From Candidatus Marinacidobacterales bacterium (GTDB taxonomy: Bacteria; Acidobacteriota; Vicinamibacteria; Marinacidobacterales; SMYC01), in assembly GCA_965237955.1 (NCBI GenBank), contig OZ250169.1:5664001-5728000 (forward strand): DNA of 64,000 nucleotides, given 5' to 3'. How positions within the stretch are numbered: the stretch's first letter is position 1; the number at the start of each line of letters is the position of its first letter. A program made the position numbers and the translations under genes. The notes below the pieces were generated by a model that searched no databases, was not told the DNA's origin, and worked only from the letters and a program-made list of their open reading frames with translations. Below, piece by piece: positions 1-37,776 of this stretch.

Positions 1-3000
1 GAGCATGCGCGCGAGGCTCAGGCTGAGCGGTTCGACGTCGCTCGGCTCGATGGCGAGAGGTGAGCGCGCCAAAAGCTCGTGAACGAGTGAGCCGAACCGT
101 TTGCCGCCGGGTCTTTGGGGGTCGCGTCCCTCGACCTCGGCTAGCTCGACGGAATCGGCTCCCGAAACGGGGGCTTCCTCCTCCACCAACCTGCTGACCG
201 AGCTCGCGCGGAAGCTTTCAGTCGAGCCCTGCCGTACAGTAGCTTCCTTCCGCTCGGTCCAGCTGGCGTGCTCGCGCTCGCCCGCGGTCGGACCCTCTTC
301 CGGCTGGGCCTGAAGAATCCAATAGCGTCGTAGTCCGGGTTTGGTCGCGGTCTCTAGCTCGAACTGATGGGGGTCCCACCACACGACTTCGTGGCGTCCG
401 ACGGCGGGTTTGTGCAATCCGGGGCGAATGCCTTCACCGGGCATGATGTCGGCGCGTCCCGGCCGTTCGATCACACACTCCTCGCCGGTGAACCGGGGGA
501 CATTGGCTGCGACCATCGGGAGCCGATAGGAGCGCGGTGATGGATAGAGCGCCGGCAGGAGCGGAGCCACCCAACCGGCGTCCTGCGGACGGTCGGCGAC
601 GACGGGGACCGCGAGGATGTCCCGCGCGCGCGTCGCAGCGACGTAGAGCAAGCGCAAGCTCTCGGCAGCTTCCCGCTCGCCTTCCGCCTGCTCGTGGTCG
701 ATGACTTCCCACGGTAGGCCGCCGGCGAATCGAACGGCGAAGATGCCCCTCTCGGGATCGACGTGGCGGGAGGCGCCCATCGAACGCGAGCAGGTGATGT
801 CGCACAGCACGATGACGGGGAACTCGAGCCCTTTCGCTTTGTGCACCGTCATGAGGCGAACGCCTTCGACCCCATCCTCGATGAGCGGCTGCTCGCTTCC
901 GGTCGCGCTCTCGGCGAGTGCATCTAAATGATCTACGAACCCGCGGAACGAAAGCCCGCCCGTCTCTTCGAAGTTACGAGCGAGCTGCATCAGCCGGAGG
1001 ACGTTCGCAAGGATTTGATCTCCCGCCTGCCATAGCGCGAAGCCTGCCTGTGCGCGCGTCGCGTCCAGGATTTCCCGAATCGTCAACGCGATCGGTCGAA
1101 AGTTCCTACTTTTATGTAGACGACCGAGTACGTCGATCGCCTCTTGGACGGATGCGTCGTCGCCACGAAGCTCGGCCGTCGTCCGGCGGAACGGATGAAG
1201 CGATCCGTGACGCGTACGAAACTGGAGCAGGCTGTCGTCGGAAAGACTGAACAGCGGGCCTCTCAGAGTCGCGAACACCGACAGCTCGTCGTCGGGGCGC
1301 TCGATCGCGGTGAGCGCCACGCGCATCGCATCGATCTCTTCTCGTTGATGGAACCCGCGCCCACCTATTAGCACGTGCGGAACATCGAAACCTTGAAGCG
1401 CTTCGACGTACGGTTGCGTGATCGATCTCTGCTGGGTGACGAAACGGCGGAACAGAAGACACACGTCGGACGCTCCGATGGGTCGTGGAACGGAGTCTCC
1501 GCGCGACGTGACTTGGTACCCGCTGTCTTCGATGAGCCAGCGAACCCACGATGCCACCGCACTCGGCTCGGACCGCTGCATCGCATACTGCGTCAAGTAG
1601 CCCCAGTCGCCGTACGGACGTGGTATCGGAAGTGCTACGACCGAGGGTTGCCCCTCGATCGCGGGGCGATGCGGCTCGAGCGCGACGTAGTCCGCCTGTT
1701 GGTTGTTCTCGGTCCGCTTCATCGCGGCCGACATCGAGGCGTTCACGATCTCCTGTATCTCGGGTACCGATCGAAAGCTGACGCTCAAGTAGACTGGCTG
1801 TGCGCCCGCGGCTACGAGCTGGCGCTTCACTCGCTGATAGAGCGCGACGTCGGCGCGACGGAATCGATAAATCGACTGTTTCGGATCGGCGACGACGAAG
1901 AGTTTTCCCGGGACGGTCTTTACCCGGAGCCAGTCGTCTTGCTCGGGGTCCGCCGCTGACAGGAGCAGCAGAATTTCGGCTTGGAGCGGATCGGTGTCCT
2001 GGAACTCGTCGACGAAGATGTGAGTGAACCGCTCCTGGAGTTCTTGCCGAAGAGCGTCGTTGTCTCGGAGTAGGTCGCGCGCCTTGACCAGGAGGTCGAG
2101 AAAATCGAGCCGCCCTCGTTTCGATTTCGCGTCCTGGTAGCGGTCGACGACTTCGCGTAGCTCGTTTTGCAGAAGCGCGGCCCGATCCGAGGAAGCGCGT
2201 TTCTTGAAATCAGTGAGCGCGTCTTTGAACGCTTCTCGTTCGGACAAGAGCTCCTCGCGGATGACAGATTCGCCGTAGGCGCCCCGTCCCTTGCGCCTTC
2301 CGAGCTTGAGTGCCGGAAGGCGGTGCTCGAGCGCGTCGTAGTCGCGCCGGCCTCTCACTTGCTCCTGACCCTCGAGATCCTGGACGAAGCTGAGCAAAGT
2401 TTTGAAATCCATGAACAAATAGTCCCGCTCGCTCGAGCGCTTCCGGGCGGTTTCGGCGAGACTGAGAGCGCGCTCGACTAAGTCGTCGATCTCTCCCTCT
2501 CGATCGAATGGACGAACTTGCCAGGGGGTCTTGAAGTCACGGATGTCGATGAGCGTCAGACCAGCACGATAGAGCTCGTCGATGGGGCCTTGCTCTCGCA
2601 CCGCGCTCTTTCGCAGCAGACGCCGGACGCCGGGCGGCGGGTCGTCGAGTTTCTGCTCGAGCCAGCGATCGAAGACGCGGCGATACATCCGCTCGGTCTC
2701 TCCCTCGGTCGCGACTTCGAACAACGGGTCGACGCTCGCTTGCAGCGGTCGCTCCTTGAGCAAGTCCGCGCAAAAGCCGTGGATCGTACCAATGTGCGCC
2801 TCTTCGAGCTGCGCTAAACCCTTTTCGAGTCGTCGGCGTACGTCATCGTCGTCCGCACCCTGGTGGGCATGACGGGCGCGCTCGAGCTCGCTTCGCAGCC
2901 GAAGCTTCAGCTCGCCCGCGGCTTTCTCGGTGAACGTCACCGCCACGAGGCGTCGCAGCTCAACCCGCCCGGTTCGAATGACCTGGATGATGCGTCCGAC

Positions 3001-29244: not shown

Positions 29245-29484
29245 CTAAGTTTCTTCCAGTCCCCGTGCGCCTGTCCCTCCCCGACGAGGTTCGCTGAAAA
29301 GGTAAAAAAGGGGACAGGGACTACTTTGCCAGATGGTCACAAAGGCGCAAACAAAAGCACACGACACGACCTCCGTGCGTCCATCGCCTGTTGAGTGAAC
29401 CACGGTGCGCGCGCCCCTCTGTGCCAACCTCCTTGAGACACTTTGCCCCTTGAAATTAGTGTAGAGGGCGGAGGAGGATCATGA

Positions 29485-29952
29485 ATGACTACGTTGATTG
29501 AGAGAATGACCCCGGCGGGATCGGAAGGAGCCCGTAGGGCGACTGCAGATCGCGCCGGCCGCGATGCGGCGGGGGCCCCGGATCCCGAAGTGAGTGAGCA
29601 AGCGAAGCGTCGACGCTTTACCGCGGAGTACAAGCTGCGGATGGTGCGCGAGGCGGATGCCTGCAAGGGTGACGGCGATGTTGCAGCTCTTCTGCGTCGA
29701 GAGGAACTGTACTCGTCGCATCTTTCGAGTTGGCGTCGCCAACGTGACAAGATTGCCAAGGCGGGGTTGACGTCGAGAAAGCGAGGCCGGAAGGCGAAGG
29801 CAGAGGATCCACGGGTCAAGGAGCTCGAGCGCGAGAACGCCCGACTCCAACGTCGCCTGGCTCGGGTGGAGACGATGTTGGAGATCCAAAAAAAAGCCTC
29901 CGAACTGCTGGGGATCCCCCTGAATCCACTAGACAGCGACAGGACCGACTGA
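29485..29952 (+). CDS. IS3 type A OrfA
   Basis: Near-identical to 11728-12195. Confidence 0.88.
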   Translation: MTTLIERMTPAGSEGARRATADRAGRDAAGAPDPEVSEQAKRRRFTAEYKLRMVREADACKGDGDVAALLRREELYSSHLSSWRRQRDKIAKAGLTSRKRGRKAKAEDPRVKELERENARLQRRLARVETMLEIQKKASELLGIPLNPLDSDRTD

Positions 29953-29954
29953 TC

Positions 29955-31058
29955 GTGGCGGCCGAGGAGCTGGCGGGGCGGATTGGGCAGATGGCGGAAG
30001 CCTGCGAGGCTCTGGGTGTGGCTCGTTCCACGTTGTATCGAAGGCGCCGGCCGGTGACGTCCAAACCGAAGCGTCGTCCTCGGCCGCACCGAGCCCTCGA
30101 CGAGACCGAGCGCGAGGAGGTCCTCGGAACCTTGCACTGTGAGCGGTTCGTCGACAAGGCGCCCGCTGAGGTGTGGGCCACGCTCCTGGACGAGGGAATC
30201 TAATACTGCTCGATCCGCACGATGTATCGGATTCTGGCGGACAACGGAGAGGTCCGAGAGCGCCGGAACCAGCTGCGACATCTGAGTTATCAAAAGCCGG
30301 AGCTGCTGGCCGAAGCGCCGAACCAGGTTTGGTCGTGGGACATCACCAAGCTTCGTGGCCCGGTCAAGTGGACCTACTACTACCTCTATGTCATCCTCGA
30401 CATCTTCTCCCGCTACGTGGTTGGCTGGATGCTGGCTCACCGAGAAAGAGCGGCGCTCGCCCAACGCCTCATCGCCGAGAGCTGTCGCAAGCAGGACATT
30501 GAACCCGACCAGCTCACCCTTCACGCGGACCGTGGCAGCTCGATGAGAAGCAAGCCCGTGGCTCTGCTCCTGGCTGACCTCGGAGTTACCAAGACCCACT
30601 CCAGACCTTACATCTCGAACGACAATCCCTACTCCGAGTCCCAGTTCAAGACGATGAAGTACTGTCCTCAGTTTCCGAGCCGTTTTGGTTCCGCCGAAGA
30701 CGGCCGGCTGTTCTGCTGCGGTTTCTTCGACTACTACAACTACGAGCACCGGCACTCAGGAATCGGCTTCATGACGCCGGCCGACGTTCACTATGGTCGA
30801 GCCGAACAGCTCACCACCGCTCGGCGCCAGATCCTTCTCGAAGCTCATCGGACTCATCCCGAACGCTTCGTTCGCGGAACGTCACAACCTCCCGTTTTGC
30901 CTCCTCAGGCTTGGATCAACCCGCCGCCGGAGAAAACGACGCTCCTGGAGGCCGCACAAGCCAGTCTCGCGGCGGCGTCCATACCTGGGGCACCCCCTTT
31001 TTCTGCTCCACTAAACGAGATCTCGATCGATGCAGATGTGGACCGCACTGGCGTCACG
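29955..31058 (+). pseudogene. IS3 type A OrfB with nonsense mutation and 3' IS insertion
   Basis: TAC changed to TAA at 30201-30203 relative to copy 1; tail interrupted at 31059. Confidence 0.88.
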
Positions 31059-31108
31059 TGAACCGCCCCGGGTTTTCCGGAGACTCCAACTCTTGAGAGG
31101 ATGGAGTC

Positions 31109-32469
<1,361 letters not shown>

Positions 32470-32650
32470 AACAGTCTCCGGAAAACCCGGGGCGGTTCAC
32501 ACGAGCCTCCCGACGCTAATCGAGGCTCACTAAATGCAGCTCGCGAGTGTCTCAAAGTTGTTGACGCGTTCCGCGCGCGTCAAGGTTTCCCTCGCTTCGC
32601 TCGGCGCTTCGCGACCCTGACACAGGGGGACACGCACTGCGCGCCGGGGT

Positions 32651-32740
32651 GATTCGATGAGTGGGCGATGGGCGGACGGGGCGCCGGGCACCAGGTTGGG
32701 GCGTCGTGGCGTGGGTAACTGTGTCTGGACACAGTTGGTG
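32651..32740 (-). repeat. Inverted copy of the 3' end region of the HNH gene
   Basis: Reverse complement aligns with 37489-37593, terminal 23 nt 21/23 identical; contains palindrome AACTGTGTC-TG-GACACAGTT (32717-32736). Confidence 0.8.
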
Positions 32741-34088
32741 TGAACGCTCTCGAAAAAAAACAGAACAAAACGAATTGTGCAACCGCCTACATCGGTAACG
32801 AAACAGACCGGGCACATAGGTAACAGTTTGCGGTGTCGTGGATTCTCTTCGAGATCATTTCGGGCCTCGTCTTTTGTATGGCCTCTTGCTTCGTCGTTCG
32901 GGAGAAACTAGAAGCCCAAAGGCGCGATATCCACGGTCCCTGGCGTTTCGAACATCGAGAATCCCGAGAGGGACGGGACCGAAGTGAACCTTCCACCGGT
33001 CGTCATCGACTTGCTCGAGACCGACGCGCTCTGACTTTAGACAGCTGCTTATGTACCACTGCTTGGACTCAAAAGAGATCATTCCGTTGGGATAGGTTTG
33101 AGCGACGTAGAAGTGCTCCGGGTATTCGATTTGCGGGAGCTGACGAGGGTAGGGGCGGTTCGAGGGCTGATAGCGAGATGCAGGAACCTCCTGACCAAGT
33201 GCCTCATGCGGGCGGATTTCGTTGTATTCCTCCCGGAACCGATCGAATGCCCGTTGCTGTGCTCGAAAGCTCGCTCGGGGCGGTTTAGCCGTCTCTGACT
33301 TCAAGGTGCTGTGCATCCGTTCATGTCTTCCGTTTTGATCGGGTCGGCCGGGCTGAATCCGCTCAGGACGGATTCCGAGACGAATCCACCAAACAGCAAG
33401 TCTGGACAGTCCTCCTGGCGCAAGAGTCGAGAACGGCGCTCCGTTGTCGGTTCGAATCGCGTCCGGCAGACCGTATGCTCGAAATACCGATTCGAATATC
33501 TTCCGTGTCGGCTTGAACAATGGCCGGTGAAGACCCTGACAGGCAAATAAATAGCGACTGCATCCGTCGCTCACGGTCAAGGGGTGACAACGCTCCCCTG
33601 CAACCGGAAAATGTCCCTTGAAGTCGGCACACCACACCGCATTGGGGCTCCCGTAGTCGCCCAGACGATCGCCATACGGAGAGCTTCGGCGTATCCGCCG
33701 CCGCTTCTGGATGAGCCCATTCTTACGCAGAACCTCTCCGATCGTGCTCGTCGCCGGCAGCGCGAGCTGCGGATAGTGCCGTTGCAGGATGACACGCAAC
33801 TTGCGCGGTCCCCAACGCGGGTGTTTCTTCCGGGCTCTCAGAATCTTTTCCACCACGTCGTCCGCGACAGCGTGAGGATGCGACAAAGGGGCGCGAGAAC
33901 GCTCTTCCAGACCTGCGACCCCATCCAACTCGTAACGTTCGACCCACTTGTAGCCAGTCTTTCGGCTCACCCCAAACCGTTCGCACAGGGCACTGAACGG
34001 CTCCCCAGCTTCAAGGTGTCAACGCCGGCCGAAAACTGCGCATTCATGGCGGATGAAAATTGCACACCCGAGCCATGGGTGGCGAACC

Positions 34089-34928
34089 CTATGACGCCGT
34101 CGCCTCCGTGTATTTCCTATGAGATTTAGCCGGCGGGTGAGGTTCGTCCGAACCTGCCGGATGGAGCGCTCGCCACAGTTCGGAGTGCTCTCTCATGCGG
34201 TAACTGTTTCCTCGGATGTTGACGAGGTGGCAGTGGTGCAGAATGCGGTCGATGAGAGCGGCGGCCATGACTTCGTCGCCAAGGATCTCGCCCCATTCCT
34301 CGAAACTTTTGTTAGAGGTGAGCACGGTCGAAGCGCGCTCGTATCGCCTACTTATGAGCTGGAAAAAAAGCACCGCGCCGGTCTGGGTGACGGGTAGGTA
34401 TCCGATTTCATCGACAACAAGCAGTGACGGATAACTGAGAACCGCGAGTCGACGAGTGAGGCGGCCCGCGTCACGAGCCTCTTCGAGGGAGGTGATGAGC
34501 TTAGCCAGGGTGCCGTAATAGACGCGCCGTCCATTCTGGGCAGCGGCGATGGCAAGACTAATCGCGAGATGAGTTTTGCCCACACCAGGAGGTCCCAATA
34601 AGACGACGTTCTCCTTACGTTCAACGAACCCGAGCTCGTGAAGGTTCTCAATCTGCTCGCGTTTGATCGATGGCTGGAACGAAAAATCGAACTCATCGAT
34701 TGTTTTGACCGCGGGGAGTCGTGAGGAGCGCATCGCCGCTTGGAGACGACGGTTGTTTCTCAACGTGATCTGCGCTCCAAGAAGGTTCTCGATGGCCTCC
34801 GCCGTTGTGACCGCACCGCCATCGGCATCAGATAGTACGCGGTCGACAGCTTCGAGCGCGCCAGGCATCTTTAGGTCGGCCAGCATCGTACGGATCTGCT
34901 CACGTCGCGATATTGTGCTCGCCTTCAT
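34089..34928 (-). CDS. istB: IS21 helper ATPase IstB
   Basis: FDFSFQPS, GPPGVGKTHLA, VVDEIGY, TSNK, AALIDRILHH. Confidence 0.95.
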   Translation of the reverse strand: MKASTISRREQIRTMLADLKMPGALEAVDRVLSDADGGAVTTAEAIENLLGAQITLRNNRRLQAAMRSSRLPAVKTIDEFDFSFQPSIKREQIENLHELGFVERKENVVLLGPPGVGKTHLAISLAIAAAQNGRRVYYGTLAKLITSLEEARDAGRLTRRLAVLSYPSLLVVDEIGYLPVTQTGAVLFFQLISRRYERASTVLTSNKSFEEWGEILGDEVMAAALIDRILHHCHLVNIRGNSYRMREHSELWRALHPAGSDEPHPPAKSHRKYTEATAS

Positions 34929-35968
34929 TGTCCACCTCCAACGAGCCGCGTGTAGACTTCGAGGGGACGATGCTCGACATCCATCGAAGGCAGTGTGGTT
35001 AAGCAGGCTTTTGGAGTTCTTCTCGCGGGTTGGTTTGGCAGTACAAGAGAGCGATATGGCCGCTCAACGAGCGGTCTCAGAGTGGCCCTTTCATCGCGCG
35101 CGAATCGTTCTATCGGTCGTTCGTTGGTTGTGCGATGGAGTCGGACGTTGGCGACGTCACTCAGCCAACGCTCGAGCTGAGCATCGAGGTCGTCATCGTT
35201 GATAAAGTGGCGACCGTAGAAGAAGCTTCCTCTCACATAGCGGATTGGCCTTTCCACTTTGCCCTTGGTCTTCGCCCGATACGGGCGACACGCTCTTGTT
35301 CGAAACTCCCAGTGGTGGGCGAAGCGGACGAACTCTGGGTTCTCAACGAGAGGGCCACCTTCCCGGCGGTGATCCTCGACGATGACCGAACGCATCTGGT
35401 CAAAAAGGAGCTCTTTGGGAACTCCTCCAAAAAATAGGAAGGCCTGCTCAAGCCCCGCGAACAACGTCCGCATGTCCTGTCGCTTGAAAAACCGAAGCCA
35501 TAGCAGCCTCGAGTATCCGAGCACCACGAGAAGTGCCCACCGACGACCCCATGGCAAACGAAAGTGTGCAAAATCGACCTGAGCTTGGTGGCCTGGTGGG
35601 GTCTCGAAACGCACCAGCGGCTCCGCCGGTGGCTGTGGGCGAATCTGCCGCACGTACTCCTTGACCTGCGTGTAGCCGCCTTCATAGCCCGCGGCACGGA
35701 TCTCATCATGCAGGCGTACTGAACTCAGCTCCGGGAACTCGTGCAGGCGCGAATGAAGGATCTCCCGGTACGGGTCGATCCTGCGCTCGATCCGCGGACG
35801 CTTCTTGTAGCGCACCGTTTCCTCGTCCAACTCTCGGTCCAGTTGACCCGTCTTTATCCAGTGGTGGACCGTTCGGCGGCTGATTCCTAGCTTGTCTGCT
35901 AGCGCCGCCTTCTTGATTCCCTGCTCCAAATACTCTCGTAGTAACACTCGTTTCTCCCTTCCGTACAT
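34925..35968 (-). CDS. istA: IS21 transposase IstA
   Basis: RFETPPGHQAQVDF, LGYSR, FDQM, KTKGKVER. Confidence 0.94.
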   Translation of the reverse strand: MYGREKRVLLREYLEQGIKKAALADKLGISRRTVHHWIKTGQLDRELDEETVRYKKRPRIERRIDPYREILHSRLHEFPELSSVRLHDEIRAAGYEGGYTQVKEYVRQIRPQPPAEPLVRFETPPGHQAQVDFAHFRLPWGRRWALLVVLGYSRLLWLRFFKRQDMRTLFAGLEQAFLFFGGVPKELLFDQMRSVIVEDHRREGGPLVENPEFVRFAHHWEFRTRACRPYRAKTKGKVERPIRYVRGSFFYGRHFINDDDLDAQLERWLSDVANVRLHRTTNERPIERFARDERATLRPLVERPYRSLVLPNQPARRTPKACLTTLPSMDVEHRPLEVYTRLVGGGQ

Positions 35969-36423
35969 CGGCGCCTCCACTCCGGAAACGCCATTCTGAT
36001 TGAAGGCGCGCCGTCATGTCTGGCACTCCAGACACACGACAACGGCCTCCTTTTACGGATGGCCGAGTGTGCAATTTTCGCCCGCCGCTAACACAAGGCG
36101 CGCAGCGATGAATCTCACTCGTCCATTCATGCAATTCGTCTCGTCCCACGGCATCGGCCACCTCCCTGGTAAAGGGATTGTCACCCATGTCGCCGGTCTG
36201 TTTTGTCACCAATGTACCCGGTCCGGACCAATTATTTGCTTGACAGCTTTTTGGAAGCGCTTTGGAAAAAAGCGTAGGTGCGCTCTGTCGTGCGGCTGTA
36301 CGTGCGTTAGAGGCACGATGGTCGCCTTGTCTTCGTCGTCGAGACTTTGAAAGAGGGTTGACGTCTCGGCGCTTCGCACACGCGAAATGCGAGCGACGAA
36401 AAAGTCCATGCTATAAGAAACAG

Positions 36424-37518
36424 ATGAACGACCAAAACGATTTGAAATCACTTTCCGACGACGAGTTGCTTCGTTGTTTGTCCGAGGCGTTGGCGCAGTC
36501 GCGACGAGTGGAGTGGGTTCTTGTCGCACACATTGCCGAAGTCGATGCGCGACGACTTTATGCAAGTGAAGGATCGCCTTCGATGTTTCAATACTGCCTC
36601 GAGGTCTTGCATTTGTCAGAGTCGGAAGCCTATCGACGCATCGCGGCGGCTCGCCTCTCCCGCAGCTATCCTGTGCTCCTAGAAATGCTCGAGGATGGAC
36701 GCATTCACTTGGCCGGTATCGCAGTACCGAGAAAGCATCTAACGGACGCCAACTACGAAGACGTTTTGGCTCGAGCCACTCACAAGACTAAACGTGAGCT
36801 CGAAGAGCTCGTGGCCGAGTTGGCGCCGAAGGCTGATGTTCCTCCGACGATTCGAAAGCGGTCACAACGCAAAGCCGAGTCCGAGCCATTGAAATTGAGC
36901 TCGTCGAGTCAACTGTGTCCGGGAACAGTTTTAACAAAGACATCGGCAGCGAAGCCACAGCCGGCCCCTGACAAGTTGACAAGCCGGGCAACCGTCAAAC
37001 CACTGTCACCTGCGCGCTACAAAGTGACGTTCACGGCGAGCGAGGAGCTCCGCGACAAACTCGAGCGGCTCCAAGCACTCATACCCGGCGGCGACCTCGC
37101 TTCCATCATCGACGCGGCCGTGAGCGAGAAACTCGAACGTCTCGAAGCCAAACGCTATGGCAGGACGAACAAGTCGAGAAAAAACCTCGAAGACGCCGAC
37201 ACCTCACCGGGCGTGCGCGGCATCTCCGCTGCGGTGAAACGCGCCGTCTGGGCGCGCGATCGGGGTCAATGTACCTTCCTCAACGCCCGGGGCAAACGCT
37301 GCCCGGAGTGCCACCGGCTCGAGTTCCACCACGACGAACCCTACGGGCTAGGTGGAGATCGAAGCGTGGACAACGTACGACTGGCGTGCCCGGCTCTCAA
37401 CGCCTACATGCCTGAGCTTGACTACGGTAAGGAGAAAATGGACCGGCACCGGCGCTCGGCCGAGAGAGTCGGCGAACCTCAGCCCACGCTCGAGCTCTGC
37501 CTGGACAAAGTTGCCTGA
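36424..37518 (+). CDS. DUF222-like/HNH endonuclease-domain protein
   Basis: LSDDELL...HIAEVDARRLY...SMFQYC...LSESEAYRRI N-domain; C-terminal VWARDRGQC...RC...LEFHH..PY..GG...DNVRLAC. ATG 36424 follows a TGCTATAA extended -10-like motif. Confidence 0.8.
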   Translation: MNDQNDLKSLSDDELLRCLSEALAQSRRVEWVLVAHIAEVDARRLYASEGSPSMFQYCLEVLHLSESEAYRRIAAARLSRSYPVLLEMLEDGRIHLAGIAVPRKHLTDANYEDVLARATHKTKRELEELVAELAPKADVPPTIRKRSQRKAESEPLKLSSSSQLCPGTVLTKTSAAKPQPAPDKLTSRATVKPLSPARYKVTFTASEELRDKLERLQALIPGGDLASIIDAAVSEKLERLEAKRYGRTNKSRKNLEDADTSPGVRGISAAVKRAVWARDRGQCTFLNARGKRCPECHRLEFHHDEPYGLGGDRSVDNVRLACPALNAYMPELDYGKEKMDRHRRSAERVGEPQPTLELCLDKVA

Positions 37519-37593
37519 AACACACCGCCCGCGCACGACAGCCACCAAACCGCGTGCCCGCGTGCCTCGAGCCCATCGCCCACATATCGAATC

Positions 37594-37776
37594 GTTACGG
37601 TTCTTGCCCCATACTCGCAGCGGTAGGTCCTCCGTCACGAGTGGACTGAGATCAACGATCCTATTGGGCAGTGGAGCCTGGGTCAGGCTCTCATTGGTTG
37701 GCTGATCCTCGGGGCTGGTACAGCTGAGACAGGCGGTCGCCGTGCAAGATATGAAGATCGTCCAGAGTTTCTTCAT
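37594..37776 (-). pseudogene. Truncated N-terminus of a cyclase-family (kynurenine formamidase-like) lipoprotein
   Basis: RBS AAGGAG, signal peptide with LSC, RIVDLSPLVTEDLPLRVWG, then runs straight into the HNH-associated repeat at 37593. Confidence 0.55.

What the first reader, a model, noticed from the sequence alone, without database searches (positions are those of the whole stretch)
32651..37593. Candidate transposase-free HNH mobile element with inverted structured ends
Seen: removing the IS481/IS21 insert (32777-36229) leaves a unit of about 1.5 kb made of end-L (32651-32740), an AT-rich promoter-like leader, one DUF222-like/HNH gene, and end-R (37489-37593). End-R is the inverted homolog of end-L (terminal GCCCATCGCCCACxxATCGAATC, 21/23 identical) and overlaps the last codons of the ORF. 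A cyclase-like gene breaks off exactly at 37594, as expected at an insertion boundary. The unit has no DDE, HUH or recombinase gene. Known: DUF222/HNH genes (13E12-type) occur as multicopy repeats with poorly understood mobility, and TnpB/IscB guide RNAs lie at element ends. Inference: this is a selfish element, or an HNH nuclease paired with a conserved 3' non-coding module that could be an RNA scaffold whose flank supplies a variable sequence. I found no TSD, and the left flank is not the rest of the cyclase gene.
Basis: partly seen in the sequence, partly recalled or inferred. Interest (0 to 1): 0.8.

Follow-up and report, generated by a model that had tools for sequence, protein, structure and literature searches.

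The report
Promoter split by gyrase-type DNA wrap
A many-copy nuclease gene, like some unrelated transposons, has a promoter whose two halves sit 166 bases apart around a stretch patterned like a DNA-gyrase wrapping site, so the host's gyrase likely switches these selfish genes on or off.

Summary
The inverted ends are real, but they are a local feature of four copies in this genome. Homology runs past ATCGAATC, there is no target-site duplication and no conserved RNA fold, so the guide-RNA idea fails.

The unit is a decaying copy of a multicopy DUF222-like/HNH cassette. Two features are widely conserved: 20-bp palindromes, and a leader in which TTGACA and an extended -10 box lie 164-168 bp apart (84 of 88 genome-scan hits) although the spacers are only about 46% identical.

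The same leader precedes 16 metagenomic IS66-type transposases. In both groups the spacer's GC periodicity fits the two arms of the E. coli gyrase motif at one position, 63 bp upstream of the -10 box. Chance hits and ordinary promoters show no fit, and the motif's cleavage core does not match.

Best reading: host gyrase likely wraps the spacer and gates transcription (inferred, untested). This scan noted the cassette and a fixed box spacing before on other DNA; the IS66 link and gyrase fit were not found in its notes or in my paper searches. An IS481 repeatedly lands 7-11 bp before the TTGACA.

The parts
32573..32650 (.). REP-like hairpin and flank shared with the sister copy at genome position 4.07 Mb (outer, ragged part of the left end)
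32651..32716 (-). Left end module (subclade feature); inverted-repeat arm at 32651-32673
32717..32736 (.). Upstream 20-bp palindrome
32737..32775 (+). A-tract part of the leader, now cut off from the -35 box by IS481
32776..36229 (-). IS481-family element, 3-bp duplication, inserted 10 bp before TTGACA; its transposase gene is interrupted by IS21
34017..36093 (-). IS21-family element (istA, istB) nested in IS481, 5-bp duplication
36240..36245 (+). Consensus -35 box TTGACA with no -10 box at normal distance
36246..36411 (+). 166-bp fixed-length spacer of low sequence conservation
36284..36413 (.). 130-bp stretch matching the two periodic arms of the gyrase motif, centre at 36348/36349
36409..36417 (+). 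Extended -10 box; the ATG follows 6 nt later (predicted leaderless transcript)
36424..37518 (+). 364-aa protein: helical DUF222-like domain, disordered linker, helical region, Zn-type HNH domain; this copy has Leu at a His kept in 71 of 74 open copies
36911..36930 (.). Mid-gene 20-bp palindrome in the linker, the most widely kept palindrome
37493..37512 (.). Degenerate end-of-gene palindrome
37513..37600 (+). Right end module (subclade feature); inverted-repeat arm at 37571-37593; truncated relative to sister copies
37601..37776 (-). 5' fragment of a host gene broken at the element's right end; cyclase identity unconfirmed

Best explanation
This is a decaying copy of a multicopy DUF222-like/HNH gene cassette whose leader holds a -35 box and an extended -10 box 166 bp apart around a stretch matching the gyrase wrap pattern, so host DNA gyrase likely binds there and gates transcription, while the protein likely spreads the cassette by nicking at its own palindromes. 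Shown: the fixed spacing, the in-register periodic pattern, its fit to the gyrase arms with the centre 63 bp before the -10 box, the same leader before IS66-type transposases, the palindromes, multicopy spread and ragged ends. Inferred: gyrase wraps the right arm up to the -10 box and forms a loop of about 150 bp. That loop would take up the 149 bp excess over a normal 17-bp spacer and place the -35 box beside the -10 box, so expression would follow gyrase occupancy and supercoiling state. Inferred: the helical N-terminal domain binds the palindromes, and HNH nicks start recombination or copying, which would give ends at or beyond the palindromes without target duplication.
For: Spacing: 84 of 88 pattern hits in five genomes fall at 164-168 bp when 153-183 was allowed; the reversed pattern gave 2 hits. 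In this genome 166 is the top spacing of 0-400, with 12 hits against a mean of 0.36. Spacer identity averages 46%, minimum 25%. Three paralogues at 28-36% protein identity keep 165-166. Sharing: 16 metagenomic IS66-type loci have 165-169, and their GC profile correlates with the HNH profile at r=0.63 (0 of 2000 rotations reach it). Gyrase fit (matrix from PMC6379681 Table DS10): the arms-only score peaks at spacer position 103.5 in HNH (mean z 2.7, best window in 40 of 78) and in IS66 (z 2.9, 10 of 15), against z 0.26 and 4 of 57 in chance pattern hits and z 0.2 and 0.0 in 150 and 115 ordinary promoter-like sites. The peak survives masking the A-tract. Each arm alone implies the same centre, and the best gap between arms is 0 (HNH) or +1 to +2 (IS66) relative to the gyrase motif. 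The three distant paralogues, not in the 78, all peak at 103.5. The gyrase loop on Mu DNA measures 156 bp (PMC11626157). The host has a GyrA with a GyrA-box. Palindromes: 72 of 100 loci carry the mid-gene one, and its free positions pair at 79% against 56% shuffled (0 of 5000). Several copies begin or end at a palindrome. The model's weak fold matches include ParB/Spo0J/Noc and HNH nucleases.
Against: No experiment and no RNA data. The cleavage core of the gyrase motif does not match (z 0.3). Absolute scores are modest: HNH mean 5.4, maximum 10.7, only 37% above this genome's 95th percentile, IS66 mean 2.8, against 14.3 for the Mu site. Another protein that bends DNA with similar geometry could select the same pattern. 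One Legionella IS66 leader has 185 bp, with the extra length on the -35 side by the full matrix, while the arms-only matrix ranks another centre first; this sits badly with a strict 149-bp splice. None of 13 IS66 copies from plasmids has the 166-bp form. Four distant HNH homologues lack the -35 module. HNH leaders are related by descent, so the 78 are not independent. Most IS66 assignments were by eye (2 confirmed by NCBIfam, 4 aligned to one of them). No empty target site was found. All fold matches have E above 0.1.
Confidence: 0.5

Rival explanations
1. The leader is a fixed-geometry DNA loop, but the partner is not gyrase: RNA polymerase itself, a nucleoid protein, or a supercoil apex pinned by intrinsic bends brings the two boxes together.
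For: The same spacing and periodicity data. The gyrase cleavage core does not match and absolute scores are modest.
Against: Arm length, arm phase and the gap between arms match the gyrase motif within 0-2 bp in two unrelated gene families. Ordinary promoter-like sites lack the pattern.
Confidence: 0.27
2. The spacer is a gyrase site serving mobility (local supercoiling for synapsis or nicking, as at the Mu site). The -10 box alone drives transcription and TTGACA merely docks a polymerase or marks the edge.
For: The Mu site promotes transpososome assembly without affecting transcription (PMC10052514 passages). An extended -10 with an ATG 6 nt later can work without a -35 box (established knowledge).
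Against: It does not explain why TTGACA is almost invariant and held within 2 bp of a fixed distance. In IS66 the site is not central.
Confidence: 0.12
3. One reading: a terminal-inverted-repeat element, or an HNH nuclease guided by a 3' RNA whose flank supplies the guide.
For: The 23-bp inverted pair is real and occurs on both sides in four copies of this genome.
Against: The module is downstream in only 6 of 79 loci. There is no sharp edge, no duplication, no Rfam match and no stable fold.
Confidence: 0.05
4. The leader is a neutral relic: an old insertion in one consensus promoter, passed between elements by capture, with no present function.
For: HNH and IS66 spacers are slightly more alike than shuffles (27.7% vs 24.5%). 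IS elements land next to this -35 box, so capture is possible.
Against: Length is kept within 2 bp while sequence has fallen to 25-46% identity, and both boxes and the periodic phase are kept.
Confidence: 0.06

Closest known systems
REP13E12 / DUF222 (PF02720) + HNH proteins of Mycobacterium and other Actinomycetota
   Same: Multicopy, transposase-free genes with a DUF222-like N-terminus and a C-terminal HNH; associated with rearrangement breakpoints (PMC13157036 passages).
   Different: The window protein scores below the DUF222 cut-off. No split promoter or internal palindrome appeared in the passages read. Host is in Vicinamibacteria; nearest Atlas clusters are Myxococcota and Bdellovibrionota.
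Strong gyrase sites (Mu SGS, pSC101, pBR322) and the E. coli Topo-Seq gyrase motif
   Same: 130-bp stretch with two 10.5-bp GC-periodic arms at the same spacing, carried by a mobile element.
   Different: Placed between a -35 and a -10 box at a fixed distance; the cleavage core does not match; scores are lower than Mu SGS; binding untested.
Sigma-70 promoters with extended -10 and leaderless starts
   Same: TTGACA, TGn-TATA boxes, upstream A/T tracts, ATG 6-7 nt after the -10 box.
   Different: The spacer is 166 bp, not about 17 bp (the normal value is established knowledge).
OMEGA nucleases (IscB/HEARO, TnpB) with end-encoded RNA
   Same: An HNH domain next to conserved non-coding DNA in a mobile unit.
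   Different: No RuvC match, no RNA fold or covariation, no sharp end.
Promoter-targeting transposons (TnGBS/ISLre2; named from a scan note and recalled)
   Same: The nested IS481 inserts at a near-fixed distance upstream of a -35 box.
   Different: It is IS481-family, and all 8 right ends in this genome lie in this cassette's leader rather than at host promoters.

Membership tests
13E12 / DUF222 family | DUF222 match above the curated cut-off | tested here: inconclusive
   Window protein 17.8 bits vs cut-off 24.4; 25 of 52 homologues match at E<=0.05, best 7e-7
13E12 / DUF222 family | C-terminal HNH domain | tested here: met
   HH, N and CxxHN residues kept in most of 74 open copies; HNH fold matches; this copy has His-to-Leu at 325
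13E12 / DUF222 family | Multicopy dispersed repeat without transposase | tested here: met
13E12 / DUF222 family | SOS/LexA induction | not tested
   stated for M. tuberculosis in PMC13157036 (passage)
Strong gyrase site | Two periodic GC arms at gyrase spacing over 130 bp | tested here: met
Strong gyrase site | Match to the central cleavage motif | tested here: not met
   core-only z 0.3
Strong gyrase site | Motif score in the range of Mu SGS (14.3) | tested here: not met
   mean 5.4, best 10.7-11.2
Strong gyrase site | Gyrase binding and cleavage | not testable with these tools
   needs biochemistry or Topo-Seq
Sigma-70 promoter | Consensus -35 and -10 boxes | tested here: met
Sigma-70 promoter | 16-18 bp spacer | tested here: not met
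   164-168 bp
Sigma-70 promoter | Mapped transcription start | not testable with these tools
   only assembled contigs were available
OMEGA (IscB/TnpB) system | RuvC domain | tested here: not met
OMEGA (IscB/TnpB) system | Conserved structured RNA at a sharp element end | tested here: not met
Insertion sequence or MITE with terminal inverted repeats | Family-wide terminal repeats and target duplication | tested here: not met

The most novel reading that the evidence does not exclude
Gyrase acts as a transcription factor by topology. Its roughly 150-bp wrap splices a -35 and a -10 box lying 166 bp apart into one working sigma-70 promoter, giving unrelated mobile elements a portable switch that reads gyrase occupancy or supercoiling.
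Probability: 0.25. Interest if true: 0.95.

Novelty: categorically new. Interest (0 to 1): 0.8.

Why it matters
Sigma-70 promoters are taken to need their two boxes about 17 bp apart, and gyrase is taken to affect transcription through bulk supercoiling. A leader that fixes the boxes 166 bp apart around a gyrase-shaped wrap, and that is shared by an HNH cassette and IS66 transposases, would be a new kind of control element. It would link mobile-element activity directly to a host topoisomerase and to drugs that act on it. Both parts match E. coli consensus patterns, so it can be tested at once in a laboratory strain. The cassette also offers a handle on how transposase-free DUF222/HNH genes spread: the family has 5,576 clusters at E<=1e-30. 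The novelty rating refers to the leader; the cassette itself is a variant of a known kind.

Tried and rejected
RNA reading of the leader: no paired covariation among the top mutual-information pairs, and mean folding z of -0.1 to -0.7 in 30 HNH and 16 IS66 spacers on both strands.

Excision of the 149 bp: no joint of that size in four runs, but contigs drop rare forms. None of the 14 loci inspected for a missing or odd leader showed a 17-bp version.

Gyrase centre at spacer position 93.5, my first guess from peak positions: the matrix prefers 103.5.

Empty sites: six flank searches in sister species gave occupied orthologous loci, rearranged flanks, two scars holding a single palindrome, or nothing.

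A second IS beside TTGACA is an ISL3-like element that targets AT-rich sites all over the genome, so it is not specific (family name from its protein, recalled).

Viral contigs gave only background spacings and no relatives. The strict pattern found nothing in 400 other genomes of the phylum, and the protein profile matched 2 of them, with only four candidates scored per genome.

No full-length relative was found in plasmids or among solved-structure sequences. The single-sequence model of the N-terminal domain was too poor to use, and the second structural aligner never ran. No RNA holder was listed.

Paper searches with no description of this leader.
Full report
Observation. The window lies in an 8.1-Mb genome of 60% GC; its relatives are labelled Vicinamibacteria / Ca. 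Marinacidobacterales. So are IS481 at 32776-36229 with a nested IS21 and the 364-aa ORF with sub-threshold DUF222 and HNH matches. The right junction is bridged in 5 of 7 runs laid. The boundary is not at ATCGAATC, however. The right side matches a sister copy to 37600 and the left side to about 32573, and sister copies continue further and stop at different places. The module was downstream in 6 of 79 full loci and on both sides in 1, plus three IS-interrupted copies of this genome. No target duplication was found. The broken neighbour could not be confirmed as a cyclase.

The cassette. The protein has 30 matches in this genome and matches in 27 of 41 genomes searched (the tally includes one unpublished genome on which nothing else rests). 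It has 5,576 clusters at E<=1e-30 in the representative library, and the nearest Atlas clusters are Myxococcota and Bdellovibrionota HNH proteins. Of 85 loci with a leader, 74 have an open frame, median dN/dS is 0.25 over 284 pairs, and the tree shows genome-specific expansions (loci were chosen from best hits, which favours intact copies). Orthologous copies persist between sister species while their flanks gain deletions, so movement is slow. The window copy is likely damaged: it has Leu at a His kept in 71 of 74, and dN/dS of 0.54 to its closest open paralogue. A 20-bp palindrome sits in the disordered linker in 72 of 100 loci, found with a symmetry-blind pattern; its free positions pair at 79% against 56% in shuffles. 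Copies upstream and at the gene end are less common (11 and 16 of 79), and several elements begin or end at one. The model (pLDDT 71) gives only weak fold matches, to McrA/Cas9-type HNH domains and to ParB/Spo0J/Noc. I infer that the N-terminal domain binds the palindromes and that HNH nicks drive spread; no empty site was found to show it.

The leader. Across homologues of 47-100% identity, TTGACA lies 164-168 bp upstream of a TGn-TATA box, usually with the ATG 6-7 nt after the hexamer (86 of 96 loci, search window 162-171). Wider scans confirm the peak: 84 of 88 hits in five genomes when 153-183 was allowed (27 of the 30 loci fetched encode the family by profile), and 166 as top spacing of 0-400 in this genome. 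Spacer identity is 46% on average, with no paired covariation and no folding signal. There is no -10 box at normal distance behind TTGACA and no -35 box before the -10. Four distant homologues lack the module.

Shared with IS66. A metagenome pattern scan returned 121 loci, of which 120 were analysed. Thirty-eight encode the HNH family, and 16 precede IS66-type transposases at 165-169 bp, inside the left repeat of single-gene elements or between tnpB and tnpC. Two were confirmed by NCBIfam, four align to one of them at 59-68%, and the rest were assigned by eye. None of 13 plasmid IS66 copies has the 166 form; one, from Legionella longbeachae, has 185 bp.

Gyrase pattern. HNH and IS66 spacers share an in-register GC profile (r=0.63, 0 of 2000 rotations) made of two 10.5-bp-periodic arms with a phase jump. 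The E. coli gyrase motif is 130 bp, with a 36-bp core and two periodic arms (PMC6379681, passages and supplement parts 241-242). Scoring with that matrix gives the same peak in both families, at spacer position 103.5, 63 bp before the -10 box. With arms only, mean z is 2.7 in 78 non-redundant HNH leaders (best of 207 windows in 40) and 2.9 in 15 IS66 leaders (10), against 0.26 in 57 chance pattern hits (4). The peak persists with the A-tract masked, and the core alone gives nothing. Ordinary promoter-like sites show no signal. Each arm alone implies the same centre, and the best inter-arm gap is within 0-2 bp of the gyrase motif. Three distant paralogues outside the set also peak at 103.5. Against: absolute scores (mean 5.4 and 2.8) are well below Mu SGS (14.3), several single leaders peak elsewhere, and the 185-bp case is ambiguous. 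The host encodes a GyrA with a GyrA-box (motif recalled).

How it likely works. Shown: boxes, spacing, pattern, sharing. Inferred: gyrase wraps the spacer so that the right arm ends at the -10 box. The loop seen on Mu DNA is 156 bp (PMC11626157, passages), close to the 149 bp by which the spacer exceeds 17 bp, so the wrap or the loop it leaves could set the -35 box beside the -10 box and make transcription depend on gyrase and supercoiling. Only one arm is thought to wrap fully at a time (PMC13284261, passages), and gyrase and polymerase may exclude each other, so the sign of the control is open. I give gyrase gating 0.5, another bending partner 0.27, a mobility-only gyrase site as in Mu (PMC10052514, passages) 0.12, a neutral relic 0.06 and the RNA-guide or terminal-repeat model 0.05.

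IS481. All 8 right ends in this genome lie in the cassette's leader: seven are 8-11 bp before TTGAC and the eighth is separated from it by another IS. Related ends in other genomes and metagenomes lie 7-11 bp before it. Its terminus copies the core of the cassette's palindrome. One left end lies elsewhere. This suggests a distinctive complex at the -35 edge.

Known systems and novelty. The cassette works like 13E12/DUF222-HNH repeats (PMC13157036, passages); membership is inconclusive. It is not an OMEGA system or a terminal-repeat IS by the tests above. The leader matches no kind found in nine paper searches (listings and abstract starts only, open-access library only, bioRxiv supplements closed). 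This scan noted the cassette with palindromes (e1-6381734) and a fixed box spacing in Bdellovibrio-type bacteria (e1-3032392). Searches of its notes gave nothing for the IS66 leader or gyrase. Interest 0.8.

Noticed in passing
window 32776-36229 and seven other sites in G000; L059, L065, L076, L207, L219, L372: An IS481 lineage that inserts 7-11 bp upstream of this cassette's TTGACA with 3-bp duplications, and whose right terminus equals the core of the cassette's palindrome: a likely parasite of the cassette.
   Followed up: partly
L379:47-243 (Legionella longbeachae plasmid IS66): TTGACA and TATAAT 185 bp apart before the transposase, with the same flanking T and A tracts: a possible longer class of the split promoter.
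   Followed up: partly
L388:1330-1500, L389:1250-1520: Orthologous sites in two sister species hold a lone 20-bp palindrome between a decayed left end and a host promoter: either a scar or a target site.
   Followed up: partly
L010, L019, L048, L066, L071, L072 and G000 near 6229800: 7 of 78 cassettes lie just upstream of Ser/Thr kinase genes (0.1% of random windows); some share ancestry.
   Followed up: partly
G000 near 6971700: A junction joins the mid-gene palindrome of one copy to the upstream palindrome of another, suggesting recombination at palindromes.
   Followed up: no
window 32519-32579: A roughly 55-bp repeat with about 17 copies in the genome lies next to the left end.
   Followed up: no
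window 32573-32625: A REP-like hairpin also found beside other copies of the end module.
   Followed up: partly
window 29337-32500: Two IS3-family elements side by side, one with an ALIL frameshift pseudoknot at 31516-31629.
   Followed up: no
G000, about 60 sites: A nearly identical ISL3-like element with AT-rich targets, a recent burst.
   Followed up: partly
L158, L202, L153, L206: Metagenome hits with leader-like boxes at 165-167 bp but no recognised downstream gene.
   Followed up: partly
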